A stretch of DNA of 62,399 nucleotides from Vicugna vicugna (taxonomy: Eukaryota). The notes under the pieces were generated by a model, which was not told the origin of the DNA, made no database searches, and worked only from the letters and a program-made list of their open reading frames with translations. The position numbers were made by a program, and so were the translations under genes. The stretch lies in NCBI GenBank assembly GCA_013265495.1, contig MU058198.1:7827779-7890177 (forward strand), written 5' to 3'. Below are positions 951-62,399 of the stretch, in pieces (the stretch's first letter is position 1; each line of letters starts with the position of its first letter).

Positions 951-1107
951 ATGCATAACAGAGGAAATGTGAAAAAAAAAACAAAAACGTGGGGGCCTAT
1001 GGCTCCCATCTGAGTCTCCCATAGTCTGGCCGCCATAGTATTTGAGTTTCTTATTCCTGTTCTAGGCTCTTCTACCTTCTGTAATGTAGAACGTTCTTCC
1101 CTCACAG

Positions 1108-29772: not shown

Positions 29773-30160
29773 GTGTGCACGTGTGTGTGTGTATATGAGT
29801 GTGTGATGTATGTATGTGTGTGTCTTGTATGTATGAATGTGTGTGTGTATATGTGTGTTGTATGTATGAGTGTATGCATGCATGTGTGTATGTAGGAGTA
29901 TGCATGTTTGTGTGTATAAGTGTGGTATGAGTGTGTGATGCATGTATGTGTGTATATATGTGTATGTGTGTTGTAGGTATGAGTGTGTACGTGTCTGGTG
30001 TATGTGTGTATGAGTATGTGATGTGTGCATATGAGTATATGCGTATGTGTGTATATTGCATGTGTGTATATGTGTCTGTGCGTGTGTGTTGTGTGTGTGT
30101 GTGTTGTACGTGTGTGTGTTGTGCGTGTACAAGTGCGTACATATGCGTGCTGTGTGCGCA
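29773..30160 (+). repeat. ~390 bp degenerate (TG/TA)n low-complexity repeat in ITGAX intron 5
   Basis: Alternating purine-pyrimidine tract; it is the source of the His/Thr-rich and Cys/Val-rich ORFs. Confidence 0.95.
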
Positions 30161-34289: not shown

Positions 34290-35010
34290 GGCTCTAAGTA
34301 GACTTTTCTCCAAAGATGATATACAAAGGACCAAAATGCACATGCAAAGATGCTCAATGTCAGTAATCATCAGTTATTAGCAAATCAAAACCACAATGAG
34401 ATGCCACCTCACACCCCCTAGGATGGCTGGAATCAGAGAGGCAGGTAATAACAATTGCTGATGAGGATGTGGAGAATCCCTCATCCACTGCTGGTGGGAA
34501 TGTAAAATGGTGCAGCTATATTGGTTTGGCAGTTCTTCAAAAGTTTAACTTACTGTATGACTCAGCAGTTTCACCCAAGAGAATTGAAAACATGTCTATA
34601 CAAAAAATTATACATGAATGTTCATAGTCCCATTATTCATAATAACCATAAGGTAGAAACAACTCAAATGCCCATCAGTTGATGAGCAGATAAGTAAAAT
34701 GTGGTCTACCCATACAATGGAATATTATTCTGCCATGAAAAGAATGAAAAGCTGACATATGCTTCAATGTGAATAAACCTTGAAAACATTATGTTAAAGA
34801 CAGAAAGAAGATTAGTGGTTGTTGGGTTGGTGGTAGAGCAAAATGAAGGACATGGAGGTGACTGCAGAGGGGTCTGGAGTTTCTTTTTGAGGTGATGAAA
34901 ATATTCTAAAATTGATTTGGTGATGGTTGCACAACCCTGTGAATGTCCTAGAAACAGATAAGGGGTAAATTGTGCAGCCTGTGAATTATATCTCAAAAAG
35001 TTATTAGGAA
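34290..35010 (+). mobile_element. Old LINE-1 3' end
   Basis: caaatcaaaaccacaatgagatgccacctcacacc...ggaatattattctgcc... Confidence 0.8.
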
Positions 35011-38000: not shown

Positions 38001-38962
38001 GGCTGTGGATGCCCAGAGATACTTCACGGCTTCTGTGAGTCCTGGTGTTGGGCTCTTCCAGAGGGAATAGAGGGTGCGTGGGCTCCAGGTCTTGGGGGAA
38101 ACCCTGCTTTGCCTTCCCTCTCAGCTCCCCTTCGAGAAGAACTGTGGCACCAATCACATCTGCGAGGATGACCTCAGCATTTCCTTTGGGGTCTCAGGGT
38201 GAGCGTCCACCCCCTCAGACCTGTCCTGGTCTCCCAGCCCCTCTCCTGGAACTTGGAACTCCTGCCCCTGGCTCTCCCCAATATCTCTACCCAGTGCTCA
38301 GGACCCAGACCTTTGTCCCCATCTCTCCCCAACTCCCCCACTCTATTTTTCACCCCCATATACCATTTCTAGCCTTAGTCACAGAGTCATCTCCTCCCCT
38401 CTACCACAATGCCTAGCTTGAAGACGCTGGTGGTGGGGAGTAACCTGGAGCTGAGCTTGGAAGTGACAGTGCGGAATGATGGCGAGGACTCCTATGGAAC
38501 CAGAGTCACCTTCTTCTACCCGCCAGGGCTGTCTTACCGACGTGTGGCAGTGGACCAGGTATTGTCCCCTCTGGGGAAAGACGAGGCTGATGACTGGGAA
38601 CCAGAAGAGACTCTCGTGCTGGGCTCAAAACTTGGGCAGGGCCTGTCATTGCTTAGAAGCCTCTTGAAAACCAAGAGGGCTGCGCTGGTTGCAGTTGGAT
38701 GAATGTGACTGTGTTGGCTGGGGCTTGCCTTGGCTCATTCTATGTTCAACTCTGGGCATTGCATTTGAAGGATATTGACTGTCAGAATGGGTTCCCAGGA
38801 GGCCACTAGTATGAAGAGAATGGGGACCCTTGCGTTACACTTCTTTATATTTCACATCATACCAATATTTCTCTTTTTAAAGGAAAATATATCTCAGCCT
38901 TCAGATGTTTACAGCACTGTTCTGTAGAGGAAGGAGTTGATTTACTTGGTTACTCTAGATAA

Positions 38963-39151
38963 GGGCTTGGCAAACTTTTTCTATAAAGGGCTGGATAGTA
39001 AGTATTTCACCTTTGTGGGCCATACAGTTCATCATATCTACTAAACTCTGCAAAAGCAGCCATTGACAATATGTATATGAATAAGCATGGCTGTGTTCCA
39101 ATAAAATTTTATTTATAAAAATTGGTGCTGGGCCATCATACGGCAATCCCT
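38963..39151. mobile_element. hAT-Charlie MITE (MER58-like)
   Basis: ggcaaactttttctataaagggc...ggctgtgttccaataaaattttatttataaaa...ccctg resembles MER58. Confidence 0.7.
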
Positions 39152-42100: not shown

Positions 42101-42275
42101 GGTACCCAAGGAGTGGAGCGTGGAGGGGCGGAAGTGAGACCAGCCATGGGGTGAGGGGCCAGGCTGGCCGCTGGGCCTCCAGATGGGCCTAGGAAGGCCT
42201 CTGGAGGTGCGGTTACACTGAGACCCAGAGAAGAGTCTGTATTGGGCCCTCCCTCACCTCGTGGCCCCAAGCCCA

Positions 42276-42866
42276 GAGCAGCCAAGGAAACAAGGCCTGT
42301 GGGAGACGAGACAGAAATGGGTCCAGGAGACCTCTGTCCACAGCATCAGCCTGAGTCTCCCCAAACCTTTGCCGTGTCCCCGTGCCCATCCAGCTTCCTC
42401 CGTGGGCAGCCTCTGCAAGCACTTTGCGCCCAGCTGGAAGCCCAGCCCTGCTCCCTAAACCTCCCGTTACCCCACGTCAGCCACAGACCTCGTTCCAGAG
42501 CAGCCCAAGGGCCACTGACCCGTGTTCTGTTAAGCTCCCAGCCAGAGCCTCCTCAGGGGGCCCTAATGGAACCCCACATCCACCCATTCCCCTCCTCTCC
42601 CCAGCCATGAAGAGTCCACCAAGTACCTCAACTTCTCGGCCTCAGAGGAGAAGGACAGCCGCAGGGCCCAGCACAGATACCAGGCAAGTGAGGGCGACTG
42701 AGGAGCGTGGGCCGGGGCGGGGGGCCCAGGAGCCAGAGACTCGGGAGGGATGTGGGGTTTGGCATGACCTTTGCCCTCACTGCCCTCCATGCAGGTGAAC
42801 AACCTGGGACAGAGGGACCTGCCTGCCAGCATTGATTTCTCAGTGCCCGTGGAGCTGAACCGGGTG
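42276..42866 (+). repeat. Left arm (visible part) of the inverted ITGAX segmental duplication
   Basis: Reverse complement of 61810-62399; about 13 differences including one 1-bp indel over ~590 bp by manual comparison. Confidence 0.95.
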
Positions 42867-45800
42867 AAAGGATTTAATAACTTTATGATCAGAAATTTGT
42901 CCAAGTTGGAAGCTGATATTCAGAGATTGATAGAAAAAAACCAATTCTTCTTAGCCCTTCTCTTCTGAGCTAAAGGTATCCAGAGGGAAAGAAAAAAGAT
43001 TCCAATATAGGTGAATGAGGCTATCTACCCTCTAGCATCCAGGCTACAATTCAACTTTTTGAAACATTAGAAACAACTGTCCTTATCGTATGAATCTTCA
43101 CAAGACTAGAGATGCAGCTCCAGAGGCAATTCAAAATTCACCTATTCCTTTTCACCAGTTCCCCAAACCTTCCTTGTGTATCTTATCAGTCTCATAACTC
43201 AGATTCTTTCCTGTGCTTTGAGTTGAAAATGTCAAAGTACAAACCTCAGAAAGGTAATTTTTAGCAGAAATAAAACAGAAGGAGGAAGGTCATTTGAAAT
43301 TTGGGGATGGGGGCAAGGAAATCCTTAAATCATCTTCTAAGTTCTCTGTTTGCCTCTGTCTGTATGTTCATGTGTGTCTACATATGCTGCAGAGAAGTGT
43401 AGTATTTTCTACCTTTGAATCACATTGCTAAAATTAATTCATAAGAAGAATTCTATTTAATTGTCTTGAAAACAAACAAGTGCTTATAAGAATTAAAATT
43501 TAAGAGAAACTGATCCAAATGCTTTTTCAAGTTCTCATAATCTAGGATTAATCTTTAGTAAATTAAAAGCTACTTTAGGGTTTTGGGTTTAATTAAAATA
43601 AGCATGTCTTTAGAGTTATCAACACTGAATATAATGCAGATATACAACTTTGATTCTACCTGGGTTCATTAGTCAAAGAAGTTCATATTATCTCTGTTAC
43701 AGAATTTGTCAGCAAGAAAAATAACTTGGTGAGATTAAAGTTTTCACAATTAAACATAATTGTTAAAAACAGGTAAACTAAATGGATGTAAGTAAGATGA
43801 AAAATTTCTAGGTGAACTTTTCAAGTAGTTTCCCGAAATCTTTTTTTCAAATCTTAAAGTTTTCTTAGTTGAATTATATGATGGCTAGCCATTGAATATC
43901 TAGATTATTCTCAAATAAGATAAAATAGTGCAACATTAATTACTGAACACTATTTTTGGCTTCACCTTACAGAGAAACTAACACTATTTGGGTCTTTTTA
44001 GTAAACATATTTGGTGCTGAGAAATTTTCTATGAGAAAGCACATGTTTCTAGAAATGATGGAAAATATTTATGTCTGCCAATCCACAGAATGCTATTGTA
44101 AAAGACAGGTCATAATTGCTTACTTCTTAGTTTTCACTGGAAAGTAAAAATTCTAATATATGTAATTAAAACCACTAGAGATAAGAAGGGAAAGGAATCT
44201 TAAGTGTGGTCAGAACTGGCTAAGAATTGGAATGAATTTAACTAAGTTAATGAGTTTTAATATCAAAAATAAGCTGGTGCAAAATTATTATTTGGTTTTC
44301 TCTCTGTGGAAAGACAAAGTTTTTTTGTTTGTTTTTGACTATTGGTCTGCTTTTCATTGTAGAAGGCTTTTCTTTACCTTTTAAAATAATTTGACAAGAA
44401 AACATGGATTCTGTGTTTTGTCAAAATAATTTTCTGTGTTCAGAAAGCTGAATCTTTTCTATTGAAAAAGCTAGTTTTTTTTAAAAAACAGCTATTTAAC
44501 CTTCTGATTTTGCTTTTAACGTTTTGTGTTATCTTTTTATTTCAATAGGTAACTAAGTATTGTTTGAGAGTGATCTATAATTCTTTTTGACCAAGTGTTT
44601 TAAACACTTTTTGATTCTTTGACAAACTTCCCCTAATTATAAATGAAGTCTCTTTTGACCTCAAATTAAACTGAAAAATTGAAAAACTGAAATTTTTCAG
44701 AGGGCTCCTGGAACATTTCAAAAGATTTGTTCTCTCCCCTTTAAAAAAGGGAGATGTTAAACAAATTAGGCTTATCTGAAATGTTAAACCGCATGTGAAG
44801 CGTTGTCAGATAAGTAATACAAAGCCTTCTCTACATTGTATTTATATATGTATATGTTATAAGTGTTTCAGAAATTATGTGAAATTCCTGGAAATCTGAT
44901 AAGTCCTGATCAGTCATAATTCCAGTTATTATCTTAAAATGTTGTGTGTCACAGAAATAACCAAATGTCCTTGTCAATCCCTTCATAATGAACTCTCATC
45001 AGATCTTCAATAACGAACATTTGTAAGTCTCTTGTCATTACAGAGTTATTGTTTTTCCGTGATGATTTTACAAAAGCCTTTTTGCAAAAGTGTTTCATCT
45101 TCAGGAATTCAAGAAAAAGAACTTTGACAAGAACAGTTTTCTGATAACTTTGAGATAATAAAACTAAACTGGGTAAAAATTTCCAGAACTAGTGGAAAAA
45201 TTGGATTCAGGTAGAACAAGAATTAATAACATGGGACTAAATGAACTGAGGAGAATGACTGTAATTTTTATGACTTCTTGTTTTGAAAAATTGCCAGTTC
45301 TCTAATGTTTCACTTTTCTAGACTTGAGGAAATGTTTTCTCTCAAGCTACCTATGGCTTACAGCAATTTGGTGGAACATACTTTTGTAAACAGAGGTGAA
45401 ATAAGTATCTTTTCTCCCCACCTAATCTTTCCAGAATTTTAAAACTCTTGAGTATTGTTTCGTGGCAATATAGTTAGTTATTTTGCATAAGTTCAATAAA
45501 CGTCTGTTCTCCTTGTAACAAAATAGGACACAGTGGGAACCACAGGCTATTACCAAGGCTTTGATTGAAAGATGTCATATTTGAGAGAGAAATGTAGAGA
45601 CTCAGATATGACCAGACAGCTTTAAGGAAGAACCTGAACTTTGGCTTGACTTCCTGTCCTCGAGTGTTTTTCAAGTTCAGTCTGAGATTCCTTATAAAAA
45701 ATTCCAGCAAGGCAGTCTTAAAAGAAACTTACATGGTCAGTCACAATTCTTGCTGCATTTATGTAAGCAATCAGGCCAAGTCTAATACAAACAAGTTAGT

Positions 45801-47583
45801 TTTTCTGTAATTATCCTTGGAAAAAACATGGGGGGAGGGGTAGCTGAGACACCAAAATTATGTTTGCATCTTTGCAGGTATTATATTCGTCTTGTTAATT
45901 GTTTTTGAGGTTTTGCTAAGTACCTGTAAACTGGACTGGATCCTGAATTCTTCTCATTTCCTCAAATACCCAGTTATGATTCTCCAAACTAACATTTCCC
46001 GTTTTCTCCCACCCTTCCGATTTGGAATCGGTAAGAACAAAGATGGCTCTTGAATATTTTTGTAAGGAACTATACCATGTCCCCTTCATGACCCAGAAAA
46101 ATGGCAGCCCAACTTCAAGGACTCCAGCCTTGGGTACACATCTCACAACTAAAGAAGACTGCACTTGACTTCTGGCCCTGGATAGATGCTGGTGACCTCC
46201 AAGTCAAATTAGGTAGGAAGAGAAGGATTTGACATTGAGGTGGACAGCTTTCTCCCAAGTGGCTGGATCGAGACTTAATACTTTAGCAAGACATTCTCCT
46301 TCTCCTTCTCCTTCTTCTCCATCCCTTCTCTTCTCCTTCCCCTTCCTCCTCCTCCTCTTCCTCCTCTTCCTCTTCTTCCTCTTCCTCCTCCTCCTCTCCT
46401 CCTCCTCCCCCTCCTTCTTCTTTTCTCCTTTGCTGTGGCATTGACTTGGGAAAATAACACCATCATCTCTATCTCCCAGGCCATTTTTAAGAGGGGCAGG
46501 TAACATTTCAGACTGCTCTGATCTTTCCATTATGCTACAGACTCCCTGGTGTCTTTCTCTGCCTCTGGTTAACTACCCCAGACTTGCAGAACTTTGAATC
46601 CAGGCTTTATTCAAAGAAAGGGACACAAGGCAAGGGTAATAAAAAATAATATATTAAGTTAAATTAAAAATAAAAAGAATAAAACTACCTGTGCAGTCTA
46701 CAGATCCTTAAATTTTTATTAGCCTCCATGTCTGTCACATTTCCAGTTCTGAGAGACAGATTCAAATGGAAATTATCGGGAGGCACTCATGATTCAAAAT
46801 TAGCTCCCTTTGATAGTCCCCTACTTCCCTGGTTAAGAGAAAATATAAATGAGGAAATTCTCCTTAACTATTGAAAATATTGCAGAATCTGCTGCTCTAA
46901 TAAAATCTGTCCAACAAGAATCCTTACACTCTCTGGCCAAAGTTGTGGGTTTTTTTCTTTTTCCAAAGTTGTTCTTGATGATAGGATAGCCCTTGATTAT
47001 CTTTCAGCTGAAGAAGGAGGTATCTATGCTGTGGCCAAGGCCACGAGTTGCACCTGGATGAACACTTCTGGGGAAGTTGAAATTCAGTTACATGAGGTCA
47101 CTGAGTGATAAGATCACTGAGCAAGTCACTTGGCTTAAAAAAGCAACTCCTTCAGCAGAGTCTTTCTTTGACTTACTTGATTTTGATTGGTTTGGATCTT
47201 GGGGACCATGGTCCAAAGTGCACTGCAGACATGGGGGATTATCCTGCTTTATTGTAATTATAATACTTTCCCGGGTGCATTGTATTCCCTCAAAAGCTTT
47301 AAATGCCTGTTTACAGCTGCTAACCACCAAGCAAATGATCTCCCTAAGCCTGGGACGTCAAAAAAGGAAGAAAAAGAATGACTAACTTAAAGATTGTGAA
47401 CCTGAAGCTGTGACCTGTGACTATCACACGAGGTTAAGCAAAAATGTTATGACCTATAGATACCACACAAAGAATGGATAAAACCCAGAGAACTTCAGAC
47501 CAGTAGCTGAGAGTGGCACTAATGCCTTAAAATTTTTACCACCTCTCTCAGCTAAGCTGAGAGTCTGATCAAAAGGGAAAAAT
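42867..47583 (+). mobile_element. ERV1 (MER4-group-like) internal region lacking its 5' LTR, with a degenerate env TM remnant
   Basis: AT-rich internal sequence. 46900-47290 translates to QQESLHSLAKVV..LDDRIALDYLSAEEGGIYAVAKATSCTWMNTSGEVE..KITEQVTWLKK..FDWFGSWGPW (degenerate immunosuppressive domain and CX6CC). PPT aaaagggaaaaa at 47571-47582. Confidence 0.8.
46293..46430 (+). repeat. CT-rich (TCC/TTC)n low-complexity tract
   Basis: Almost pure polypyrimidine run of ~135 bp. Confidence 0.9.
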
Positions 47584-47947
47584 TGTTAAAAAGGAACAAT
47601 AGAACCCAAATGGAGTCACTTGTGCTAAGCCCCACATCAGCAAAGACTTAATATATAAACTAATTGCAGTTTCAACCTTTCCCAGGAATGTAGTTTTAAC
47701 TGATCAGTCAACTGGTCAGTCTGGAATTTTCTGGACAGCACCGATGAGGTAATCTGCCACATAGGCCCTTTCCATCCCCCAAAGGAAGATGAGGTAATCC
47801 ACTTTCTGACTATAAAAATCTTCCATTTTGTCTGGCTCCTCAGAGTTTCTCTCTACTTGCTAGATGGGATGCTGTCCAATGCATGAATGGTTCAACAAAG
47901 CCAATTAGATCTCTATAATTTACTAAGTTGAATATTTTTTTTTAACA
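47584..47947 (+). mobile_element. 3' LTR of the ERV1 element
   Basis: Follows the PPT; inverted termini TGTTAAAAA...TTTTTAACA; internal TATAAAA. Confidence 0.8.
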
Positions 47948-48072
47948 AAGGACAACAGAGAGTATCTCTAAGACCTCTGGTCACTAAGAGGGTAGTCACT
48001 GTGAAGGGCAAAACCAAGAAACTATTAATACCAGGGGGTGTAGTGTGAAGGAGTTATTTTGTTTTGTAAATC

Positions 48073-48715
48073 TGTTAAAGCAGGCAGATATCTAGATATA
48101 AGCAGAGAAAGGGGGATGCAGGCCAAAGGGCAGGAATTGGGCAAAAAGGAGGGGCATGGGCCAAATGCAGAAAAGCATACATCAAGTAAACAACAGGCGT
48201 CCCTGGACAGAGAAAGAAATGCAAGAACCTCTGGGCTGATAAGTGGTCACACCTTTTGGGGTGATGAGCGGCCTGGAGGCCAACAAAGGAAGGTGGGAAA
48301 AGGCAGGATTCTCTAGTGTTTGAATGGAGCCTTTTGCTCATTATGCCCTCACTTTAATAAAATTAGCGTTGCATATTGGATGTACCCATCGTGCACCAAC
48401 ACCATGACACTTCCAATCTAGACTAAAAAAGGACAAAAATCCCTCCCCCCTTCGAAGGTGGAATTGGGATGAAAATCAGAAAATACTACCCCCAAACTCT
48501 TCCCTCCCCAATGAAAATTCCACCCATTCATTTTTACGCTCCATGTAACCAACTTGCCAGAGAAACTCAGGGCAGCCGCTACCCTGAGCCTGCCTGCTCT
48601 CCCCTCGAGAGTGTACTGTCTATCCCTGAATAAATCCTCGCTTTACTTTCTTAACCTCCGAGTCTCGTCTCTGAATTCTTTCTGCGATGAGACGAGGACC
48701 TGGTCACCGGCAGCA
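48073..48715 (+). mobile_element. Solo ERV1 LTR
   Basis: TGTTAAAG...GGCAGCA with AATAAA near 48629 and a near-perfect 4-bp TSD AATC/GATC. Confidence 0.65.
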
Positions 48716-49176
48716 GATCGGTATCATCAGCTTCCTGAGGAAACTTCACTAAAATGGGTTGTGAGAGTAATTCACCGGGGGACCGGTCTCTGGGTGAATG
48801 CCGCAGAGAGGGCGAGCGCGTTTGGGCTTGACACAGGCACACTGCTCACTCTAAGCAATCACAGATGGCTCCGTGTGACCCAGACACACAGGAGGTTATT
48901 CCTGAGAGATCAGCCAGCCAGGTGGACTGGATAAAAGCCACCGTAAGGTCTGTTTACCCTGAGAAGGGGGACTGTCCATTACCCCCATGAATGCGAAGTG
49001 GAGCACCCCAGATGGAGCAGCTGATATGCCTCAGACTCAGGCCATGTGGTTCTGGCTTTGTGATGACTGAGCTGTTTCCCTGATGACGATGCCCGTTACC
49101 CAGGTCTTGATAAATGCTGGGGTTAAAACGGCCCCTTTCACATGTGCTGGGCTGCACCTCACAGGTCTACAAGGCC

Positions 49177-49596
49177 TGTACTCGTCTGGCTTCAAGATCA
49201 GAGAAAGAACCCGGAGTCAGTGACAGAGACGTCAATGGTTTAATGGGTAGGGGGAGCTTATATGTCTGAAGCCAGGTCCTGGAGCAACTCCCCACCGTGT
49301 GTGGAGGACGTGGCCAGGACATGAGGCAGTCTTCACTCCCAGGGGCTGAGGTAGATGAGCAATTATAGGGAGAATTGATGCCAGGTTGGCTCTTTGGTTA
49401 CCAAGGAAACCAGCAGAGGGGCGCACCCCTCACCGCCCCTTTGATAAGAACAATCACTAGCTGGGGCCTGGGGCAAGTATGTAGGAAGGTCAGTCTTGTG
49501 AGTAGGGTGGAGGTGAAGCAGGCACTGGTCGAGTGAGCAGGGAGGGGATGCACAGAAAGCAGGAGAGCAGCCACCTCGAATGGCCAGATTGTTACA
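49177..49596 (-). mobile_element. Probable solo LTR, antisense
   Basis: TGTA...TACA termini and a reverse ATTAAA; no TSD resolved. Confidence 0.45.
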
Positions 49597-49697
49597 ACAT
49601 GGGCACCGCACGTAACCCTCCTGCTGCAAAACCAAAAAACAGTTCAGGAAGCTTTATCAAATTTCCTGTCTCAGCTTCCCCTCAAAGGTCTTACAGA

Positions 49698-50289
49698 TGT
49701 AACCAAGCAAAGGGCTCACGTCCCCACCGCACACAAAGCCGAACTCTGACAGCAGGAATTTGCAACAAGGCAAGAATTTATTGCAGGGCATCAAGCAAGG
49801 GAGGGGGAGACAAGCCTCAGATCCATGCCACCTTGGTCCTGGGGTTAGAGGTTTTTTTTAAAGGGAAGAACAAAGAGGCTGGGATTAATCATGTCTTGTG
49901 ATATTTCTTTTATTTCTTTATTTTATTTTATTTACTTATTTATTATTTTTTGTCTTGTGACATTGCTTAATCATAGTTTTGGGAGTCAGGATGTCTCTGG
50001 TTTGTGATTCTCTGGCCATGTGGTCCAGGGCTTGGGAGGTCTGTCAGCTCATCTTGCCCTGGAGAAACAACCTGAGTTTGTACATTAATAATGATACCTA
50101 CAGTAGCAATTTTAGTACGTTAACGACGTTATCGACAATAGCCAAATTTTAGTTATCTGATTCTGATTGATTGGTGTTCAGTTAGCACAGAAGTGAGGTC
50201 AGAGGGGACAAGGAGGGAGTAAAGTTTTGGATAGAGAGATTAATCATGCACTCGGTAAGGAATCTCTGTTTTAGGGAGACTCAGTTTCA
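49698..50289 (-). mobile_element. Solo ERV1 LTR, antisense
   Basis: Minus strand reads TGAAAC...GGTTACA with AATAAA; perfect 4-bp TSD CAGA (49694-49697, 50290-50293). Confidence 0.8.
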
Positions 50290-51959
50290 CAGATGGTTAA
50301 TAAAACCATTCAGTTAATTAACAAGAAAATGAGAGGAGGCTGAGGGGTGATTCGAGGAACTTCCCAACAAAGTGGAAAATCTTTCATGGTTATTAAGAAA
50401 TACGGTGAACAAAGAAATACTGATAGGAGCAAAACAAAGAAGAAACAGAAAGGGGAGAGTCATGGAACTTATCCCAGCAGGGGGGGAATTTTTAGATGGT
50501 TTTGGAGAAATTTAAAATTGGAATGCAAAAATTACAATAAGAAGCCTGACAAGTAATCGCTTGGGACCGTGGTTAGACAGATTAATCAGGTTAATGATTG
50601 ACAAAAGGACGTTGGTTCAGTCCCTCACTGGTGACCCAAAGCCTTTGGCACAAGAGTGGGTAAAGTAGTCAGAGGGTGGAGAAGAGATGTTTCCAGGACT
50701 CCTGGATTCAGCAGCTACACCCATTGGTGTAGCCCCTACGTGGGCAACAATTAGATGAGGGGAATGTAAAAATGTACTGATGGATAGGATTATGAAAGTT
50801 GGAATACTTAAACAGATTTTATGTAAAGAAGTTGTGCCTCCTTTACCTGAATACTTTGGGGGAATGGATATAAGGTTTGGCTGTGGAACACTTCCCCTAC
50901 CTAATATTGTAAAACCAAAATCTGTAGATGAGAAGTCCTCATGGAGGCTACAGTCAGGAAGGTAAGGTAAAAGTTTGTAGGCGAATTGGTAGATTTGAAG
51001 TCTTCATATGAAGTAGTTGCATTTCTTTTACCTGTTGTATTTATGGGGATGGACACTGAATCTCGCAGGGGAACATTTCCCCTACCTGGGATTGTGCACA
51101 ACAGAAGACATGTGAATGTAGCCTTCGAGCAATGTTAAGTGCACGTGCTAAATGGGAATCAGCAAGATTGCCTGAGTGTAGAATAGAAGCTAGAGTGTTG
51201 GTGGGGCAAGTTCTCCGCACGATTGCCCTATGTCGGGTAGCCCTACGTGGAGCACAGGCTGGGGCTTATGGCAAAAGCCTCGGAGAGCCTCCCAGCAATG
51301 CCTGCTGGGGTTTTTGGACTAGAGAAAGTGAAGGTGGCGGCACCCAGAAGAATTCCGTATATAATTGTACTGATCTTGTTCTGGGGAGAATGCAAGGAGG
51401 AAATAGATACCAGCAGGGAGCCTTTTTCCCCCAGGATTGACTCTGGTACTGTGTGCGGAGCTGATGGATTCCACTGTCACTTGGACAGTGCCCTTTAAGC
51501 CACTCTCCACTGACAAAGAGCTACTTGGTTTGTGGATGGCAGTTCCAAGGTCAATAGACAACATTCTGTTTGAAAGGCCACCAGTCTAAATGAAAAAGGT
51601 AAAAAGAGATCAGCCTGAATGTGAGTGTGCTGAATTGCATGCTGTTTTCCTAACAATGATGGAAAAATCATATGGTGTTAAAAGCCCCTACGTTTGGGTT
51701 TTTAATGACTCAGTGGCAGTGGCCAATGGCCTGTCCATATAGTCAGGTAGTAGGTCAGTGGAAACCTGGCCTATTAAAGGGGTGCCTATATGGGGTGTGG
51801 CCCTATGAAAATTGGAGGAGTCTGATAAAATGCTTTAAATCTTATTAACCATTGAAAAATCCCATGGGGTTACAATGGAATGCTACTCCGCAACAAAAAG
51901 GATTAGTACCTACAACAATGGTATCAAAGTCGTTATCCTGAGTGAAGGGAGCCTAACAA

Positions 51960-52120
51960 AGCTTCCGGGCTGGTGAACACAAGGAGGTGCAGGTAGAACG
52001 ACACTGGGAGAGGATATGGAGCCCCGTGCCCTTCCCCTCACCTTACCCTCTGTATCTCTCCTATCTGGCTCTTCCTGAGTTAGGTCCTTTTGTAATAAAC
52101 CAGGGATCTGGTAAGTTAAA
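51960..52120 (+). mobile_element. MER21-like LTR fragment
   Basis: gcttccgggctggtgaacac...ggctcttcctgagttaggtccttttgtaataaac resembles MER21. Confidence 0.55.
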
Positions 52121-52269
52121 AAAAAACTAAAGCCTAACAAAAATAGCAAATCCTATCTGACTTCATTTTAAGGAAATCTTTTAAAAATGCAAACGAACAT
52201 ATAGTGACAGAAAGAAAATCAGTGGTTGCCTGAGGATGGGGGAAAGAGGGATTAAAAAGAGGCACAAGT

Positions 52270-53530
52270 TTAGGAAAACTGGGCATCCACTTGCAAAAGA
52301 GTGAAGTTGGGCTCTTACCGCACACCCTTACCATATACAAAAATTGACTCAAAATGGATCAAAGGCCTAAACATAAGAGCTAAACTGTAAAACCCTTACA
52401 AGAAAAATAGGGGAAATTGGATTCATGAAAAGTTCATGAAATTGGATCTGACAATGATTTCATGGATATGACATTAAAAGCATATGCAACAAAAGAAAAA
52501 ACAGGTAAACTGAACTATATCAAAATTAACTTCTGTGCATCAAAGGACACAATCAACAGAGTGAAAAGACGCAATGGGGGAAAAACATTTGCAAATACAT
52601 ATCTGACACAGACTGAATATCCAAAATACCTAAAGAACTCCTGCAACTCAACAACGACAAAAACAACCCAATTTAAAAACAAAGGACTTGAATATGTGTA
52701 TATACAAAGATACACATGTGACTAACAAGCACTTGAAAAGATGCTCAGTAATAATAATAATTAGGGAAATGCAAATCAAAACCACAATGAGACACCACCT
52801 CATACTCTTTAGGATAGATATTACCCCAAAACCCAAAAATACAGCCCACCACAACAAAGAAAAACATAAAACAAGTGTTGGCAAGGGCGTGGAGAAATTG
52901 GAACCCATTGACACCGTGGTAAATATGTAAAATGGTACAACAGCTATGGAAACAGTATGGTGGTTCCTCAAATAATTAAGAACAGAAATACCATATGATC
53001 TGGCAACTCTCCTTCTAGCTATATACACAAAAAGTAGTGAAAGCAGGCTCTCGAGATATTTGTACACACCCATGTTCATAGCAATATTATTCACAACAGC
53101 CAAACGTGTCCATCAACGGTTAAATAAAACATGATTTCTATAACGGAATACTATTCAGCCTTAAAAAGGGAGGGAATTCTGACAGATGCTACAACATGGA
53201 TGATCCTTGAGGACACTATCCAAAGTGAAATAAGCCAGTCACAAAAAGACAAACACGGTTGTGATTTCACTTATGGGAGGACCTAGAGTAGCCAAATTCA
53301 TAGAGACAGAAAGTAGAATGGTAGTTGCCAGGGGCTGGGGGAGGGGATGGAGAGTTGTTTTAAGGGCTATAGAAATTCAGTTGTGCAAGATGAAAGGAGT
53401 TCAGGAGATGGATGGTGGTAACGGCTGCACAACAAAGGACATGTACTTGACGCTACTGATCTTCACACTTAAAAATAGTCGGAGGGTAAATATTACCTTA
53501 TGTGGATTATACCATGATTTAAACTAAAAA
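52270..53530 (+). mobile_element. Old LINE-1 ORF2 C-terminus plus 3'UTR
   Basis: [25 protein letters not shown] and KFIETESRMVVARGWG motifs. Confidence 0.85.
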
Positions 53531-54472
53531 TAAAACCTCAAGTGACTGTATTTCTCACTGACATTACTTTAGTATGAAAAGCAGTCTCGTATTCACCCGT
53601 CCTTCCACACAGCCCTGCAAAGATGAACACCCAGTGGCCACGATTTGATCACATTCACAATTCTCGTTCTTTCCTTCAGCACCGAATCAAGGTTGAAATG
53701 AGTCTTGTTAACTGGCCCCTGTTCTCTGCAAATCCAGTGAAGGCAGACCAGCCTCTCTAGGTTCCATCAGGAGTGGTCCCATGCATTTTCTGCCACTCAC
53801 AGGATGAACATTAATTACAAACAATCAAATCTCATTTTCAGTTACTTGAGTTTTCAGCTGCAAATAACTTATCAAGAACCTCTCCCCCTTGGACGCACTT
53901 CAAAGACACCTCGGGCTGATTCAGGCTCTCCACATCAGGGACTTCATCCCAGTGGAGTGACATGTTTACTCTGTCACCCATGAGTTAGCCATGGCTACCT
54001 CGCTGTATACCTTTGACATTACACAATGTGCGAGTGTTGTCTGATAAAAGAATTTTCCCACAGCTTATTCATCAAGCATAACATTTGTCAGATGCTGGGG
54101 GTAAAACCTACCAAACAGCCACCATCCTTGCCACCTTCTTCCTGGCTGGCACAGCTCCCTCTGTTACCAAGCCTGCAAAAGGCAGATACTAATTTTCTCA
54201 GTGCTCCATGTAGTCAGGGGATGGAATTCTTTCTAAATTGAGACAGAGTTGATGTACAGCATTATATGTTATAGGTATACAACATAGTGATTCACAATTT
54301 TTAAAGGTTATACTCCATTTACAGTTATTATAAAATGTTGGTTGTATTTCCCATGCTGTACTACATATTCTTGTAGCCTATTTATTATATGCATAGTAGT
54401 TTGTACCTCTTTATCCCCTGCCCCTCTCTTGCCCCTCCCCCATCCCCTTTCCCCACTGATAACCACTATTTT

Positions 54473-56055
54473 TTTTAACATTTTTTATTGATTTATAATC
54501 ATTTTACAATGTTGTGTCAAATTCCAGTGTTCAGCACAATTTTTCAGTCATTCATGGACATATACACACTCATTGTCACATTTTTTTCTCTGTGATTTAT
54601 CATAACATTTTGTGTATATTTCCCTGTGCTATACAGTGTAATCTTGTTTATCTATTCTACAATTTTGAAATCCCAGTCTATCCCTTCCCACCCTCTACCC
54701 CCCTGGTAACCACAAGTCTGTATTCTCTGTCCATGAGTCTATTTCTGTCCTGTATTTATGCTTTGTTTTTGTTTGTTTGTTTGTTTTTGTTTTTTAGATT
54801 CCACATATGAGCGATCTCATATGGTATTTTTCTTTCTCTTTCTGGCTTACTTCACTTAGAATGACATTCTCTAGGAGCATCCATGTTGCTGCAAATGGCA
54901 TTATGTTGTCGGTTTTTATGGCTGAGTAGTATTCCATTGTATAAATATACCACATCTTCTTTATCCAGTCACCTGTTGATGGACATTTAGGCTGTTTCCA
55001 TGTTTTGGCTATTGTAAATAGTGCTGCTATGAACATTGGGGTGCAGGTGTCATCCTGAAGTAGATTTCCTTCTGGGTACAAGCCCAGGAGTGGGATTCCT
55101 GGGTCATATGGTAAGTCTATTCCTAGTCTTTTGAGGAATCTCCACACTGTTTTCCATAGTGGCTGCACCAAACTGCATTCCCACCAGCAGTGTAGGAGGG
55201 TTCCCCTTTCTCCACAGCCTCTCCAGCATTTGTCATTTTTGGATTTTTGAATGACGGCCATTCTGACTGGTGTGAGGTGATACCTCATTGTAGTTTTGAT
55301 TTGCATTTCTCTGATAATTAGTGATATTGAACATTTTTTCATGTGCTTTTTGATCATTTGTATGTCTTCCTTGGAGAATTGCTTGTTTAGGTCTTCTGCC
55401 CATTTTTGGATTGGGTTGTTTATTTTTTTCTTATTGAGTCGTATGAGCTGCTTATATATTTTGGAGATCAAGCCTTTGTCGGTTTCACTTGCAAAAATTT
55501 TCTCCCATTCCGTAGGTTTTCTTCTTGTTTTATTTCTGGTTTCCTTTGCTCTGCAGAAGCTTGTAAGTTTCATTAGGTCCCATTTGTTTATTCTTGCTTT
55601 TATTTCTTCTAGGAGAAAATTTTTGAAATGTATGTCAGATAATGTTTTGCCTATGTTTTCCTCTAGGAGGTTTATTGTATCTTGTCTTATGTTTAAGTCT
55701 TTAATCCATTTTGAGTTGATTTTTGTATATGGTGTAAGGGTGTGTTCTAGCTTCATTGTTTTACATGCTGCTGTCCAGTTTTCCCAACACCATTTGCTGA
55801 AGAGACTGTCTTTATTCCATTGTATATTCTTCCCTCCTTTGTCGAAGATGAGTTGACCAAAAGTTTGTGGGTTCATTTCTGGGCTCTCTATTCTGTTCCA
55901 TTGGTCTATATGTCTGTTTTGGTACCAATACCATGCTGTCTTGATGACTGTAGCTCTATAGTATTGTCTGAAGTCTGGGAGAGTTATTCCTCCAGCCTCT
56001 TTCTTTCTCTTCAGTAATGCTTTAGCAATTCTAGGTCTTTGATGGTTCCATATAA
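54473..56055 (-). mobile_element. Young 5'-truncated LINE-1 with an uninterrupted ORF2 C-terminus (~420 codons), inserted in an older antisense L1 3' end (~54232-56245)
   Basis: ORF 54794-56164(-) contains canonical ORF2 text ([24 protein letters not shown]...HCWWEC...). Perfect 15-bp TSD gataaccactatttt at 54458-54472 and 56056-56070. Confidence 0.93.
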
Positions 56056-56989
56056 GATAACCACTATTTTGTTCTCTGTATCTGTGAGTCTGTTTCTTTG
56101 TTGTTATATTCCCTAGTTCGTTGTATTTTTTAGATTCCACATATAAGTGATATGTGGAATACATATCATACAGTATTTTCCTTTTTCTGTCTGACTCATT
56201 TCACTTAGCATAATCCCCTCCATGTCTATCCATGTTGTTGCAACAGAGGATGGAATTTGACTCAATCCTGGTCCTTGAGAACTTAAGGGACCTCATGTGA
56301 GGATCTGTGGAAAAGATTTACCTCCCTGATACATGAAGATGTGAGGAGAAACTTGTTTGCAATCTTGGAAACTCCCTGGGTAAAATCTGAAACTGGCCTT
56401 GTACACGGAGGACAAGGAGAGATGGAAGAAAGAGGCGGACCACTCCAGCTTGGTAGGCGGCAGGTGTAACAAGTGAGGAAACTTACATATGAGACTTGCC
56501 TTGCCACGGCCGCAAGAGGGGTAGATCTCTACACCCATCTGCCAGAATCTTAAAAGCTTGTGTAGAGGCCTTAATGGGGTGCAGTCACGTGCACTGTCCA
56601 TGTGGTCTCTACAACATATTACTCTCTCAAGGCTGTGTCCTTGAAACAGCTCCTAGTGGGGGAAAGGTGGGCAGAACGCCCATTCCAAGGACAGGGGAGG
56701 GGGAGGGGAGCCTCTGATTATTGGGACCCAGCTCGTGGGTCGAAGACCAGTCACGTCCTCTTGATGACTTCCTCCAACCCCCACCCCTCGAGACCAGTCC
56801 TTATAATCTCACACAGCCCCCTCTTCTACAGTGGGCTCTGAGCGGTCAGCAGGGGGTGTCACTAGCATGGAGGTGACTCATTGGGCAGCTGTCTGGAGGC
56901 TGATGCCACAGCAGCCACAGAGGCACATGCTGTTCTCAGCAGCACAGCACGCTGATCCACGGTGAGAACCGGGACAATGCCTGTCTCCC

Positions 56990-57800
56990 TTGACTTCCAT
57001 ACCTTTAAGGCACTGGGTGCAATGCAAATGGGGCAACAGGCCCTACTGGTTGTTACTCAAATGTATTAAAGGCTGGGAAAGTACTTTAGTCCATTCAGCC
57101 AAGGTGGTTTTGCCAGTTAGTAATTTAATCTGCTGCTTTAACATTTTTCTTCCTTTCTACCAGTGCTGCTGCCTATGGCTTATAGGGGAGATAGAACCTC
57201 CATTCGATGTCATGTTCCTTTGCCCAGTCTTGCATTTCATGCACCTTTGAAATGTGACCCTCACCGCTGTATTCAACGAGGGTACCTGTCCATGGTACTC
57301 AGCTTCTCTAATCCTCTAATGGTGGCTGCCTGGTTTGCACAGCAACAAGGGAAAGCTTGGACAGACCAAATGCAGTGTCCACAAAAACCAAGGCATATTT
57401 AGAGCCCTCACTCAGAGGGAGGGGACCAATATACTAAGCTTGCCAATCCCTCACCAGCTGGGAACTCCAGTGGATGGCCCCAGACTCCTTTGGCAGTTGC
57501 CCTGGTTATTGTTTAGAACATACAGGACATGCTATTACTGCACTAGCCAAGTCATTGTATTTCAAGGGCAATCCAGCATCCTTGGCAACACACCATCCCA
57601 CTCTGGCACTGTACTACAGTTGAAGGATTGGTTGCTAGGGCTCACACCTGAGCTACAGCTTCAGCTTCCTGGTTGCTGGGGGAGTGAGTGCCTTCCGAGC
57701 CAAGACATGGAGGAACAATGAGGACTGACTCAAGCTCTTGCAGTCAAACCCAAATATCTTTCCACAGATCCTGACCCCACAAGTGCCTTTTCATGATCAT
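56990..57800 (-). mobile_element. ERVL/class III pol remnant (RNase H C-terminus plus integrase)
   Basis: Minus strand reads LWGQDLWKDI..NQEAEAVA..CPVC..DWQA*YIGPLP..YALVFVDT..QDWAKEHDIEWRFYLPYKP*AAALVER, with stops and frameshifts. Confidence 0.75.
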
Positions 57801-60189
57801 CCACCCCTCAGCTTCCCATTTTCTAAACCATATATTTGAACCCAGTGGCTTTCACTGAAGCCTGGATTTTATCAAAGCTTTTGCATCATTTCCAAACAAA
57901 GCATAATGATCTGATAGTTTCGTGGCACTTTTTGACAGTTTCATAATAGACAACAGCCTAGGAACAAATATATGTCTGACCTGATAAAATCCAATTTTCA
58001 AATGGTGTAAGATTTCCTAGATACATTAAAATTTTTTGGCTCACACTCACTCATCCCAGCATTCATACACTTAATTCTATAGTAATGTGCAGTGGAATCT
58101 CAATACTGATTTTGATGTCACTATTCTAAATTACAGCAATTATGTTTTCATTCTTTATCACAACTTTTAGGCTTCAGTGAATAATTTTTGAGCCATTAAT
58201 CCATTTTTGTGACTTGGGGATATGGTATAACACAATAGAAGCCCTGAAAATGCAATGAAAGTAAGCAATAACACACAAAGGAAAACTATGTGAAAATAGC
58301 ACCTGTTATCTGCATGTTAGACAAGACTTGGAGTCCGTGGACGAGCTTGAGGAACACGATTATTAAGAATATAGCAGGCTGCTGTGAAAGTCACCGGGTG
58401 CAAATGTGTGAGATGTGTGGGTTTAAAATTGTTTCTAGGGTTTTTTTTCCCTCAAAAACTTAGCACTTAGGAGACCACTGGAGACCGCCATGGCTTGTGG
58501 CACACATGTTGAGAAATAGCACTCTAAAGCCTGATTCTCATAGGGTATAATCTGGAGCCCTGCTCAAGGCAGTTTCATTATAATTGGTCCTTCGGGAGAT
58601 TCCAAAGCTTCCAAATCCAAAAAGGTTTGGGACCCTATGGTGGATGTGGGAAATATTTTTGAGTGGAGGGGAAAGGACACTCTCTAGCTTCTCTGCAAAT
58701 CACAGGATCAACTGCATCCTTCATCTGTTTTTTCACTGAAACATCGGCAAGGCCTGAGCACCTTGGTGGTGGCAGCAGCAGTGGGATCTCTCCAGGGAAG
58801 GGAATGGCCTTTTATGTGTTGACTCCCAGCTCAGTACCAGGCACCACTATGAGCTTTATGCTGAGATGGGTGGCATAATAATTAGAATGACCTTACTGGG
58901 GGCATTGGGTCCCGGATAGAGGACTTCAAAGTGCTCTCCAGTCACTAACCATATGCAAACAATGTCCCCTTCAGCACATCCCAGGGTCTGTAAGAAACAT
59001 CTGTGTATTGTTTTCTCCAAGGACCATTCCAGCTGGGAGAGTAGCCACTGAGGGCTACCCCTTCGCCTTGTCTCCCTGTCCCCCACGCCCACATCTCCAT
59101 CAACTTTCTACCAGTGACAGACCTGAGAACGGAGTGAGCAGATTAAGAGGCCAGGTTACCCCCAACAAGGGTAACTTGTTCATAACCCCCACTCTGTTTA
59201 ACTGTCTTGTCCTGGCCCCAGGCCTCAGGGCTGGCTAGGGTCCACCATAACTAGGGGACACCATGGGCATCATTTTCCAGGACTCGTATCCATAAGAGGC
59301 CTTAATTTTAAACCTATGACATGTAACCAATAAAGGCACATCTTTTTTGTGTGTTTGCAATTGTTAATTTATGAATGCAAACAGTGAAAATACAGAATTA
59401 TCATCATGTTCTGGCATTTCTTCATTTGCTATATTTGAAGCCTCAAAATTTGGAAGTGACCCGAGCCCCTTTATATCTTTGAGAAACCCTGGAGCTGGTT
59501 GAGCCAAACTGGCAATGGGACAACCCTGCCCCTGGAGGGGCGCCATACTTCCCTTCTAGCCAGCTAGAAGCCAAGTTTACAAGTTACAATGTGCAGATAT
59601 GTCATTCCCAATTCAGTTTGGGGAACATGAATTCCGATTTCCAAGATGAAACTAAGAACTGACTGGCAATATTTTACTAGAAATTAGAATGACGGAGAGG
59701 CACAGAGCATCTCATACTGTGTGTTCTGAAGCCAGCCTTCTGGAAATGGAACTGGCTTCCTAACATCAAGCTGGAGAGTTCAGAAGTTACACTGCGAGTA
59801 ATGGGGAGCCACTGAAGATGGGTGAGGATGAGTGCCTTTTTCAGCACTGTGTTTTTGAAAGGTCACTGGTGGCTACTGGAAGAGGGGAGACTGGTGCTTG
59901 AGGCTATTATCCATGTATTTCTAGGTAGAAATTCAAAGTCAAGTCCTCAGAGGGGCATGGCAGGGATCTTGTCCTGGGATTTCCAGTTGGAGCCTTGACA
60001 AGACCAGTGGCCCTTCCCAGGCAAGATGTTTGTGCAAACACACTACATCCTCCCAAGGAGCGAAAGCAACCTGATCCCAGCCTCCCTCATATGAAATGCT
60101 TCTTTCCCATCAGAATTAACTTGGGTGAGAGTGAGAGGGCCAGGAAACCTCTCAGGGAAGAGCAGATCCAAACAGCAGAAGGTAGTTTC

Positions 60190-62071
60190 TTATTGGGCAG
60201 CTTGGGGGTCTGCTGTCCCATTTTCTGGGACAGTCTGTCCATTTGCTTCTGCCATCATTTCCTTGTACTGACGTTTGAAGAAGCCAACCTGTTGGGGAGG
60301 AAGCAGAAGAAAACCAGGAAGTCCAGTGGAAGAGAGGAAAAGAGCCAATGGGGAAGGGGAGCAATCACCATTTCTGGAACCCCTCCTATGTTCCAACACT
60401 GCACTAGAAACTTTATATAAATTGTGTCATTTAGACTTTGCCACAATTCTGTGAGCTGGGTAGAACCACCTTCAGTATGAGAACCAAGACCCAGCATGGA
60501 CCAGGCACTTGCCAATAGTCAAGGAAAGAATGCAGTGACTTAGGAAGAATGTGTGCCTGATTCCATGGTGAGCTCTTCTCACAGTATAGGAAGAGTAGGA
60601 TCAAGCACTGGTGGTGTCAGGAGTGGGATAAAAACACTCACCTTGTACAGGACGGCTGTGATGAGAGCTAGCAGCAGCAGTCCTCCCACAGTGCTGCCCA
60701 CAATAATGGGACCAGGGTTATGGACCTCATACTTCTCCAGCACCAGCTCCGTCTGGAGTGGAGGTGACCTCATCAGAAAGTATCATGCCTCTTGCTGTTC
60801 CAGACTCCTCTCGGGTCCCCAGCCTTTACCTCCCTCCCCTCCTTCACCAGGCTCTGCTCCAAGGGATGAGATACAGAAGCACTCGTAGGCTGAGGGACAA
60901 CTGTCCTACCCAGGAACATCCATCCTTCCTCCCTCTAGGCTTGCAAGCCACCCCCCTCCCCCAGCACCACAGATTTAGCATCAGGACCCTCTTGCCAGCC
61001 TGGCCACTGCCCATCACACAGTCACTACCTGGGCTCTCAAAAATGCCTCCTGTCCTGGAAGCTGGGAATACACAGATCTGTCAAATGTGATTTCAGCCAC
61101 ACTCACGACTACCACCTTCTTCTGCAATGTCTGCAAAAGAGAAGCAGAGAAATGGGAGCTAGCTCTGGGGAAGGCTCAGAGTTAGAGAAATGCCCTGGCT
61201 TGAGGTGGACACAGACACCTCAGGCCCCACCCGAGTCTGGGAAAGGGATTCTGCTCTTGGAACTACACACCTGGCTGACCCAGTCAAAGCTGAGGTTGCC
61301 TTTCAAAATGAAGTCAAGTTCCTCCTGGACACCGAAGGAGGGGATGTCACAGCGGAACCTCAGGCAGTCAGCAATGGAGCAGTCCTAGGGACACAGAAGT
61401 AGCATCAGACTAGAGAAGGATGGGTTTGAAGTTAGAACACAGCATTCAACTGTCTGATCTGAGGGGAGCAGCCGTATCTGAACTCAGACAGGCTATTCAG
61501 CAGACATCAATCTGATGTAACATGGATTCCTGAATTAAATTCTTCTGAAGTGTGACTTCCAGTGGGGCACACCTCCTCACCAGCACAGGATTCTTCCGAA
61601 AGTGGGTCAGGAAGTCAGACTCTCTGGGCACTATTCTCTCTGAAGAGCACTGAATGGACGGGTTCTAGGAAAATCACAGAGAGAAAGCATCTCACAGGGT
61701 CATCAGGGATTCATGAAGGACAAGGAGGCCCAGCAGGGCATCAGCAGAGGACCCACACACAGCTCTTGAGTACCTGAGGGTGGAAGACCTCCACATCCTT
61801 CCACACTGCCACCTGGTTCAGCTCCACGGGCACTGAGAAATCAATGCTGGCAGGCAGGTCCCTCTGTCCCAGGTTGTTCACCTGCATGGAGGGCAGTGAG
61901 GGCAAAGGTCATGCCAAACCCCACATCCCTCCCGAGTCTCTGGCTCCTGGGCCCCCCGCCCCGGCCCACGCTCCTCAGTCGCCCTCACTTGCCTGGTATC
62001 TGTGCTGGGCCCTGCGGCTGTCCTTCTCCTCTGAGGCCGAGAAGTTGAGGTACTTGGTGGACTCTTCATGG
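60190..62071 (-). CDS. ITGAX: Integrin alpha-X (CD11c), second copy, exons 24-30; the gene continues beyond the window end
   Basis: Minus-strand exons 62071-61993, 61881-61774, 61664-61581, 61384-61271, 61130-61029, 60752-60642, 60288-60190, all in frame. They translate to ...[46 protein letters not shown].../[17 protein letters not shown].../[69 protein letters not shown]. The EANGQ..PENGT tail is alpha-X-like, not alpha-D-like. Confidence 0.93.
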
Positions 62072-62399
62072 CTGGGGAGAGGAGGGGCATGGTTGGATGT
62101 GGGGTTCCATTAGGGCCCCATGAGGAGGCTCTGGCTGGGAGCTTAACAGAACACGGGTCAGTGACCCTTGGGCTGCTCTGGAACGAGGTCTGTGGCTGAC
62201 GTGGGGTAACGGGAGGTTTAGGGAGCAGGGCTGGGCTTCCAGCTGGGCGCAAAGTGCTTGCAGAGGCTGCCCACGGAGGAAGCTGGATGGGCACGGGGAC
62301 ACGGCAAAGGCTTCGGGAGATTCAAATGATGCTGTGGACAGAGGTCTCCTGGATCCATTCCTGTCTCGTCTCCCACAGGCCTTGTTTCCTTGGCTGCTC
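61810..62399 (-). repeat. Right arm (visible part) of the inverted ITGAX segmental duplication; extends past the window end
   Basis: Matches 42276-42866 in reverse complement; the ORF track shows near-identical 138 aa ORFs at 42382+ and 61878-. Confidence 0.95.

What the first reader, a model, noticed from the sequence alone, without database searches (positions are those of the whole stretch)
42276..62399. Potentially invertible ~19 kb cassette carrying the only ITGAX transmembrane and tail exons
Seen: segment 42867-61809 lies between near-identical inverted arms. One end has the rest of exon 25 plus exons 26-30 (calf-2, TM, GFFKR tail); the other end has an ERV-derived terminus. About 270 bp of the arms (roughly 42590-42861) show no difference I can find, whereas 8 differences cluster in 42315-42365, which suggests exchange between arms. 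Known: NAHR between inverted repeats inverts the enclosed DNA. Inference: a crossover in the arms would swap which 5' half (promoter, I-domain, propeller) is joined to the membrane anchor. The locus could therefore be an inversion polymorphism toggling CD11c between two ectodomain variants, or to a null allele when the TAG-bearing half receives the tail. It could also explain why the copy next to ITGAM is the tailless one.
Basis: inference. Interest (0 to 1): 0.75.

Follow-up and report, generated by a model that had tools for sequence, protein, structure and literature searches.

The report
Inverted CD11c fragment can split gene
Camels and alpacas carry an old, upside-down partial copy of the immune-cell gene CD11c, likely short and likely swapping sequence with the real gene, and this genome shows CD11c split in two as a flip between the copies would leave it, more likely from an assembly slip than from a true knockout allele.

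Summary
Observation confirmed; mechanism half right. The window is a South American camelid ITGAM-ITGAX locus. Both arm ends (exon 25 into ERV-like DNA; exon 25 into the tail) occur in 3 of 3 DNA runs laid, so the duplication is real. RefSeq models of alpaca and dromedary carry the same ERV-like terminus on exons 22-25 only. The second arm is therefore likely a ~2.4-kb fragment older than the camel-llama split, not a second 5' half. The arms likely exchange sequence: species-specific residues sit on both arms, and a 273-bp run is identical (P about 0.02). A crossover would thus toggle intact versus broken ITGAX, not two ectodomains. The window shows the broken arrangement, opposite to full-length models in four chromosome-scale references. 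The exon-12 TAG lies in a separate ITGAX-ITGAD conversion tract, so it is no independent proof. Known kind (PMS2/PMS2CL, F8 intron-1 inversion). Not found in six literature searches, nor noted earlier by this scan.

The parts
1..16826 (+). ITGAM (CD11b), 3' part ending in a GFFKR tail exon
   Evidence: tblastn exon chain and sequence
27325..40449 (+). ITGAX exons 1-21 (signal, propeller, I-domain, thigh, part of calf-1); likely the single 5' half
   Evidence: exon map; 14 differences in 978 aa from alpaca XP_072799100, 43-45 from Camelus
32673..33646 (+). Exons 11-14: tract near-identical to the dromedary ITGAD model; holds K401, N402, TAG and H426
   Evidence: 100/98/100/91% per exon against 31-80% in the other exons with 10 or more aligned residues
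32939..32941 (+). TAG stop at codon 418 (Q in all camelid references aligned)
   Evidence: not checked in reads
40508..42275 (+). Inferred outer part of the proximal arm (end of intron 21, exons 22-23, intron 23); its partner lies beyond the window
   Evidence: inference from the N-termini of XP_031327032 and XP_072798251
42276..42866 (+). Proximal arm, visible part: intron 23, exon 24, intron 24, first 67-72 nt of exon 25
42589..42861 (.). 273-bp run identical between the arms (candidate conversion tract or assembly collapse)
42862..42867 (+). Exon 25 / ERV-like junction with GGTG shared by both continuations
   Evidence: bridged by a 66-nt contig, 0 differences, in 3 of 3 DNA runs
42867..42968 (+). 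34-codon in-frame read-through to TGA; same terminus as the alpaca and dromedary short models
42867..47950 (+). Decayed ERV-like internal fragment (env-like remnant about 46950-47350, LTR-like end about 47580-47950 by eye)
   Evidence: GC 0.35; weak TLV_coat hit; rest by eye
42867..61809 (.). Cassette between the arms, 18,943 bp: repeats plus ITGAX exons 25b-30; no other integrin exons
60190..61809 (-). ITGAX rest of exon 25 and exons 26-30 (calf-2, TM, GFFKR tail), open frame
   Evidence: 4 differences in 231 aa (exons 24-30) from alpaca XP_072799100
61810..62399 (-). Distal arm, visible part; predicted to end about 1.8 kb beyond the window

Best explanation
An inverted copy of part of ITGAX, likely only about 2.4 kb (end of intron 21 to mid-exon 25) and likely older than the camel-llama split, faces the gene across a 19-kb cassette and likely exchanges sequence with it by gene conversion; the split layout in this window is what a crossover between the two copies would give, and most likely comes from the assembler switching copies inside the repeat. 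Steps: (1) a template switch at a 4-base microhomology joined exon 25 to ERV-like DNA downstream of the gene (junction shown; mechanism inferred). (2) The junction predates the Camelini-Lamini split (shared terminus shown at protein level; age from literature). (3) The arms convert each other (inferred from shared derived residues and the 273-bp run). (4) The usual arrangement is 5' half + tail, with the short arm ending in the ERV-like DNA and transcribed on its own (inferred from RefSeq models and one RNA run). (5) The window has the reciprocal joins, so on the short-arm reading it holds no intact ITGAX (joins shown; cause inferred).
For: Both continuations at exon 25 occur in 3 of 3 DNA runs, two organism labels, at similar depth: 8.2/12.8, 10.5/12.5, 9.4/11.2. 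Alpaca XP_072798251 (146 aa, same 47.36-Mb chromosome as full-length XP_072799100) and dromedary XP_031327032 (145 aa) are exons 22-25 plus the ERV-like end. The dromedary N-terminus matches the last 36 nt of intron 21 (8 of 12 residues); the alpaca one has no match in the window (best 5 of 8). Conversion: residue 916 is I on both dromedary arms and L on both alpaca arms. R948 occurs among references only on the alpaca short arm, yet is on both window arms. P of a run of 273 bp or more among 10 events is 0.021; 4.3-6.9 differences would be expected there at 2.0-3.2% divergence. For a misjoin: full-length 1207-aa ITGAX models in four chromosome-scale references. Other camelid models break or go mosaic at the same repeats: XP_031543126 lacks exon 13 and part of 14 and stops after exon 21; EQB77939 is mosaic at exon 25; 4 of 5 KAB models double exon 23. 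The window has a 38-N gap. Only 6 of 319 unselected inverted duplicate pairs were polymorphic in 54 humans, and such repeats cause reference errors (PMC13629690, passages).
Against: No gap lies at either visible arm, and the arms keep 12 distinct columns in 313 bp, so the assembler did separate them there. The 5' half also carries a stop and changes at two conserved sites (D402 11 of 12, R426 12 of 12 outgroups), as an old null haplotype would. All 5 dromedary KAB models end after exon 23 or 24, which could also reflect a split locus. Arm length rests on gene models, not on DNA beyond the window. The camel evidence for conversion at residue 916 could be assembly collapse. Overall arm divergence (2.0%) is no lower than the distance to the camel-like RNA run (2.0-2.5%), so exchange is local at most.
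Confidence: 0.5

Rival explanations
1. Same short old arm, but the split layout is real. A crossover between the arms, likely between exon 22 and about 42320, flipped the cassette and made an ITGAX-null haplotype. It would give an ERV-terminated, membrane-anchorless message (cut earlier by the TAG) and a promoterless tail.
For: Gap-free sequence across both visible arms. Conversion implies the arms pair. The 273-bp run exceeds the >200-bp minimum quoted for mouse, though not the 337-456 bp quoted for human (PMC3966225, passages). 8 private residue changes in exons 1-21 against 2 in the alpaca reference, including a stop. V887 on the window's exon 22 is the state of camel full-length genes, while the inner arm matches the camel-like RNA contig at 8 of 10 arm-specific events.
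Against: 8 vs 2 is not significant (two-sided P 0.11); tail vs 5' half Fisher P 0.37; 8 of 10 has P 0.11. 4 of the 8 changes sit in exons 11-12 (P 0.006 for that clustering), inside the ITGAX-ITGAD tract, so they may come from the paralogue or from collapse; outside it the count is 4 vs 2. Four references show the intact layout. Low base rate in humans.
Confidence: 0.33
2. One reading: the distal arm is a whole second 5' half with promoter, so the tail-bearing minus copy is a complete gene, the plus copy a pseudogene, and a flip swaps ectodomains.
For: A stop in the tailless half and an intact tail fit a spare copy. DNA beyond 62399 was not seen. Annotation could omit a pseudogenic 5' half.
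Against: ERV-terminated models start at exon 22 in two species; a TAG-broken long copy should leave a much longer model. An exon-7 search found only 2 camelid clusters among 22 hits, all named ITGAX. The junction is shared with Camelus, yet exons 1-21 carry the Lamini state at 32 Lamini-vs-Camelus sites, which would need wholesale conversion over 13 kb.
Confidence: 0.1
3. No partial duplication: an ERV inserted into exon 25, or the minus copy is a converted ITGAD.
For: ERV-like DNA abuts the break; ITGAX and ITGAD do convert each other in camelids.
Against: No LTR at the junction by eye, and the rest of exon 25 lies 19 kb away on the other strand. The minus tail is ITGAX-type (4 differences in 231 aa). 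The dromedary ITGAD model is only 59-79% identical to ITGAX over exons 22-25.
Confidence: 0.03

Closest known systems
PMS2 / PMS2CL (human 7p22; PMC3398144, 12 of 13 passages)
   Same: Inverted partial duplicate of a gene's 3' exons, transcribed, homogenised with the parent; crossover inverts the DNA between and can make a deleterious hybrid allele.
   Different: 100-kb duplicons 0.7 Mb apart against about 2.4 kb and 19 kb here. There the copy includes the last exons, so many crossovers are harmless; here the copy stops in exon 25, so any crossover would detach TM and tail.
F8 intron 1 inversion, int1h-1/int1h-2 (PMC7507428, 12 of 19 passages)
   Same: Intrachromosomal crossover between an intragenic repeat and a near-identical outside copy splits the gene.
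   Different: Intronic repeat, about 126 kb apart, a proven disease allele; here the arm holds exons and no flip is proven.
HsInv1051 (CCDC144B disruption) and HsInv0030 (CTRB1/CTRB2 promoter and exon-1 swap) (PMC3961182, PMC6748972; passages)
   Different: Both orientations were genotyped in people; here only one assembly shows the second orientation, and the evidence favours the gene-breaking type.

Membership tests
Inverted-repeat (NAHR) inversion polymorphism | Inverted repeats of high identity flanking the segment | tested here: met
   97.8% over 591 visible columns, 18.9-kb spacer
Inverted-repeat (NAHR) inversion polymorphism | Both orientations shown in DNA molecules spanning an arm | not testable with these tools
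   Only short-read contigs were available and they break at the arm; the opposite orientation is inferred from RefSeq protein models
Inverted-repeat (NAHR) inversion polymorphism | Breakpoint inside the repeats, no gain or loss at the unique junctions | tested here: inconclusive
   Both inner junctions are present in 3 of 3 DNA runs; the outer junction lies beyond the window
Partial inverted pseudogene in concerted evolution with its parent (PMS2CL type) | Copy holds only part of the gene | tested here: inconclusive
   Models begin at exon 22 in two species; DNA of the outer end not seen
Partial inverted pseudogene in concerted evolution with its parent (PMS2CL type) | Duplication older than a species split, yet species-specific changes on both copies | tested here: met
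   Junction in alpaca and dromedary; I916 vs L916; R948. Protein level only; collapse in a draft assembly could mimic part of it
Partial inverted pseudogene in concerted evolution with its parent (PMS2CL type) | Copy is transcribed | tested here: inconclusive
   1 of 1 RNA run laid has a spliced exon 24-25 contig running through the junction, depth 60; which arm it comes from is inferred
   No second camelid exon-7 protein and short models only argue against; DNA beyond the window not seen
ERV insertion allele | LTR at the junction and the target sequence resuming after the element | tested here: not met
   Junction enters internal-type sequence; exon 25 resumes 19 kb away on the other strand

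The most novel reading that the evidence does not exclude
A 16-million-year-old inverted exon fragment makes camelid ITGAX a standing flip-to-null locus, and a CD11c-null inversion haplotype segregates in South American camelids. Since camelid ITGAD looks degenerate, homozygotes would be natural mammals without CD11c and CD11d.
Probability: 0.3. Interest if true: 0.7.

Novelty: new member of a known kind. Interest (0 to 1): 0.42.

Why it matters
If the flip is real, alpacas or llamas carry a natural CD11c knockout allele that SNP genotyping would miss and one long-range PCR could type. ITGAX marks camel dendritic cells and a large T-bet+ B-cell subset (31.6% of B cells; PMC11059136, passages) in the animals used to raise nanobodies. 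If it is a misjoin, the practical lesson remains: camelid ITGAX has two paralogue-shared tracts (exons 11-14 and 22-25) that corrupt assemblies, gene models and variant calls. An ERV-terminated ITGAX-like transcript could also inflate apparent CD11c expression.

Tried and rejected
No whole genome is held for this window, so DNA beyond 62399 was not read. The TAG was not checked in reads, so whether other animals carry it is open. No DNA contig was shown left of 42832 in 3 of 3 DNA runs; the tool filters records, so this is no evidence on arm length. The absence of a tail-going contig in the RNA run is no evidence for the same reason. The RNA depth drop after 43310, near an AATAAA at 43269, is one run of contigs and cannot show a transcript end. 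The 32-nt contig 42868-42899 has raised depth (25, 17, 11.8); this fits a multi-copy ERV word as well as an unrearranged allele, so it was not used. Decay of the 5' half as proof of a real null allele was dropped once the cluster proved to lie in the ITGAD tract. My first translation of the minus exons had wrong boundaries and was redone. ITGAD exons in the cassette: none. Pfam: 1 of 6 repeat-derived frames gave any hit, below cut-off. An exon-11 search (386 hits, best 120 listed) showed no protein with the window's K401/N402. Literature searches (listings only) found nothing on this locus. PMC6598621 has no 'integrin'; the one held supplement of PMC7498332 has no ITGAX or ITGAD. Supplements of camelid genome papers and gene-loss tables that I did not see may list this locus. 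20 of the 24 runs listed were not examined.
Full report
Locus. The window holds the 3' part of ITGAM, then ITGAX exons 1-24 and the first 67-72 nt of exon 25 on the plus strand (ATG 27325), then 18,943 bp, then ITGAX exon 24 to exon 30 on the minus strand. The plus half differs from alpaca XP_072799100 at 14 of 978 residues and from four full-length Camelus proteins at 43-45, so the animal is a South American camelid. No whole genome is held. Exon numbers count from the ATG exon.

Observation. The inverted pair 42276-42866 / 62399-61810 is 97.8% identical; its left end is only the mirror of the window's edge. There are 12 differing columns up to 42588 and none in 42589-42861. The tail exons form an open frame; the plus half has one stop, TAG at 32939-32941, and reads 34 codons into AT-rich DNA to a TGA. 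That DNA is probably a decayed ERV interior. The support is an env-like frame with a sub-threshold Pfam hit and an LTR-like end seen by eye; the class is recalled, not tested.

The duplication is real. Of 24 runs listed, 14 hold half or more of the words of 42276-43400; I examined 4. All 3 DNA runs, from three studies and two organism labels, contain a 66-nt contig bridging the exon 25 / ERV-like junction without a difference. Each also has a second contig that leaves at 42866 into the rest of exon 25. Depths are of the same order. These contigs cannot give orientation.

The second arm is likely short and old. Searching with exon 25 plus the read-through found 3 proteins. Two are camelid: alpaca XP_072798251 (146 aa, on the same chromosome record as the full-length gene) and dromedary XP_031327032 (145 aa). 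Both are exons 22-25 plus the same terminus. The dromedary model starts in the last 36 nt of intron 21, with Met where the window has Pro. The alpaca model's first 8 residues have no match in the window. An older alpaca model stops right after exon 21. An exon-7 search found no second camelid 5' half (2 camelid clusters of 22 hits; 12 of 13 members of the large cluster were read). I infer an arm from about 40508 to 42861, about 2.35 kb, whose partner would end near 64170. A junction shared by dromedary and alpaca predates their split, about 16 million years ago (PMC5577142, 12 of 14 passages).

The copy is transcribed in at least one animal. RNA run X15 has a 184-nt contig at depth 60 that splices exon 24 to exon 25 and runs through the junction. 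Its letters in the ERV-like part (one base left out at 42941, C>T at 42950) give the dromedary model's ending, and it is 2.0-2.5% from the window, so its host is camel-like. The exon 23 spliced in front differs at three codons from every camelid protein aligned. That suggests a free-drifting short arm rather than the full-length gene, but this is inference from one run.

Exchange between arms. Residue 916 is I on both dromedary arms and L on both alpaca arms; 887 is M on both alpaca reference arms. R948 is confined to the alpaca short arm among references but lies on both window arms. A run of 273 identical bases among 10 events has P 0.021, and 6 events in 51 bp has P 0.003. Against over-reading: total arm divergence is not below the camel-llama distance; collapse in an assembly gives the same pattern; and the alpaca reference arms differ at four residues inside this run (948, 952, 961, 962). 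The arm-specific letters hint that the switch of partners lies further out, between exon 22 and about 42320 (8 of 10, P 0.11).

What a flip does. Full-length models in four chromosome-scale references (alpaca, dromedary, Bactrian, wild camel) imply the 5' half is collinear with the tail there, and the short models put the ERV-like end on the distal arm. I saw proteins only, not those genomes' DNA. The window has the reciprocal joins. With a short arm there is no second ectodomain: one orientation is intact CD11c, the other has a tailless 5' half and a promoterless tail.

Real or misjoin. For real: no gap at either visible arm, distinct letters kept, and a stop plus two conserved-site changes on the same half. 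But a dromedary ITGAD model (KAB1263492) is 100, 98, 100 and 91% identical to dromedary ITGAX over exons 11-14, against 31-80% in the other exons with 10 or more aligned residues. Four of the window's 8 private changes, the TAG among them, fall in exons 11-12. They may have been copied from the paralogue or mixed in by collapse; the dromedary ITGAD model itself has the normal residues there, and the Lamini one was not seen. Outside the tract the excess is 4 against 2. For misjoin: other camelid models fail at these same two tracts; the window has a 38-N gap; and in humans 6 of 319 unselected inverted pairs were polymorphic while such repeats cause reference errors (PMC13629690, 12 of 39 passages). 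I put misjoin at 0.5, true null haplotype at 0.33, long arm at 0.1.

Comparison with known systems. It works like PMS2/PMS2CL and, if flipped, like the F8 intron 1 inversion or HsInv1051 (PMC3961182, 12 of 25 passages). Membership among inversion polymorphisms is not established, because no molecule spanning an arm was seen. Six searches of the held library (listings only) found no description of this locus; most subscription papers are not held. This scan's notes hold nothing on it, though they hold similar cases at other camelid loci.

Verdict. A real, old, apparently undescribed inverted fragment that makes camelid ITGAX structurally fragile; known mechanism; the exciting reading (a segregating CD11c-null inversion) is open at about one in three and is cheap to test. 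Interest 0.42.

Noticed in passing
window 32673-33646; protein P0071 (KAB1263492): Camelid ITGAX exons 11-14 are near-identical to a degenerate-looking dromedary ITGAD model, including camel-specific residues. No RefSeq camelid ITGAD was among the 120 listed of 386 hits, so ITGAD may be a pseudogene still converting with ITGAX.
   Followed up: partly
window 6288-6757 vs 33201-33670: ITGAM exons 13-14 with intron 13 are 89.4% identical to ITGAX over 470 bp; exon 13 is 98% identical in protein. Likely an older ITGAM-ITGAX conversion tract.
   Followed up: partly
window 42602-43310, run X15: Spliced ERV-terminated ITGAX-like RNA at depth 60 in a reproductive-tract library from a camel-like host; AATAAA at 43269; its promoter is unknown.
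   Followed up: partly
window 42684-42685 and 61992-61991: Intron 24 has a GC donor on both arms, and the RNA contig shows it spliced.
   Followed up: yes
window 26566-26655: Upstream exon matching the 48-residue N-terminal extension of the camelid RefSeq models (30 of 30 residues); probably 5' UTR read in frame.
   Followed up: no
window 54476-56066 (-): Young-looking 5'-truncated LINE-1 with an open 3' ORF2 frame, inserted into an older LINE 3' end inside the cassette; a possible orientation or lineage marker.
   Followed up: no
window 7878-7915: 38-N gap in a CA-rich patch of an ITGAM intron, the only gap in the window.
   Followed up: no
window 29781-30128: Degenerate GT-rich array of about 350 bp in ITGAX intron 5.
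   Followed up: no
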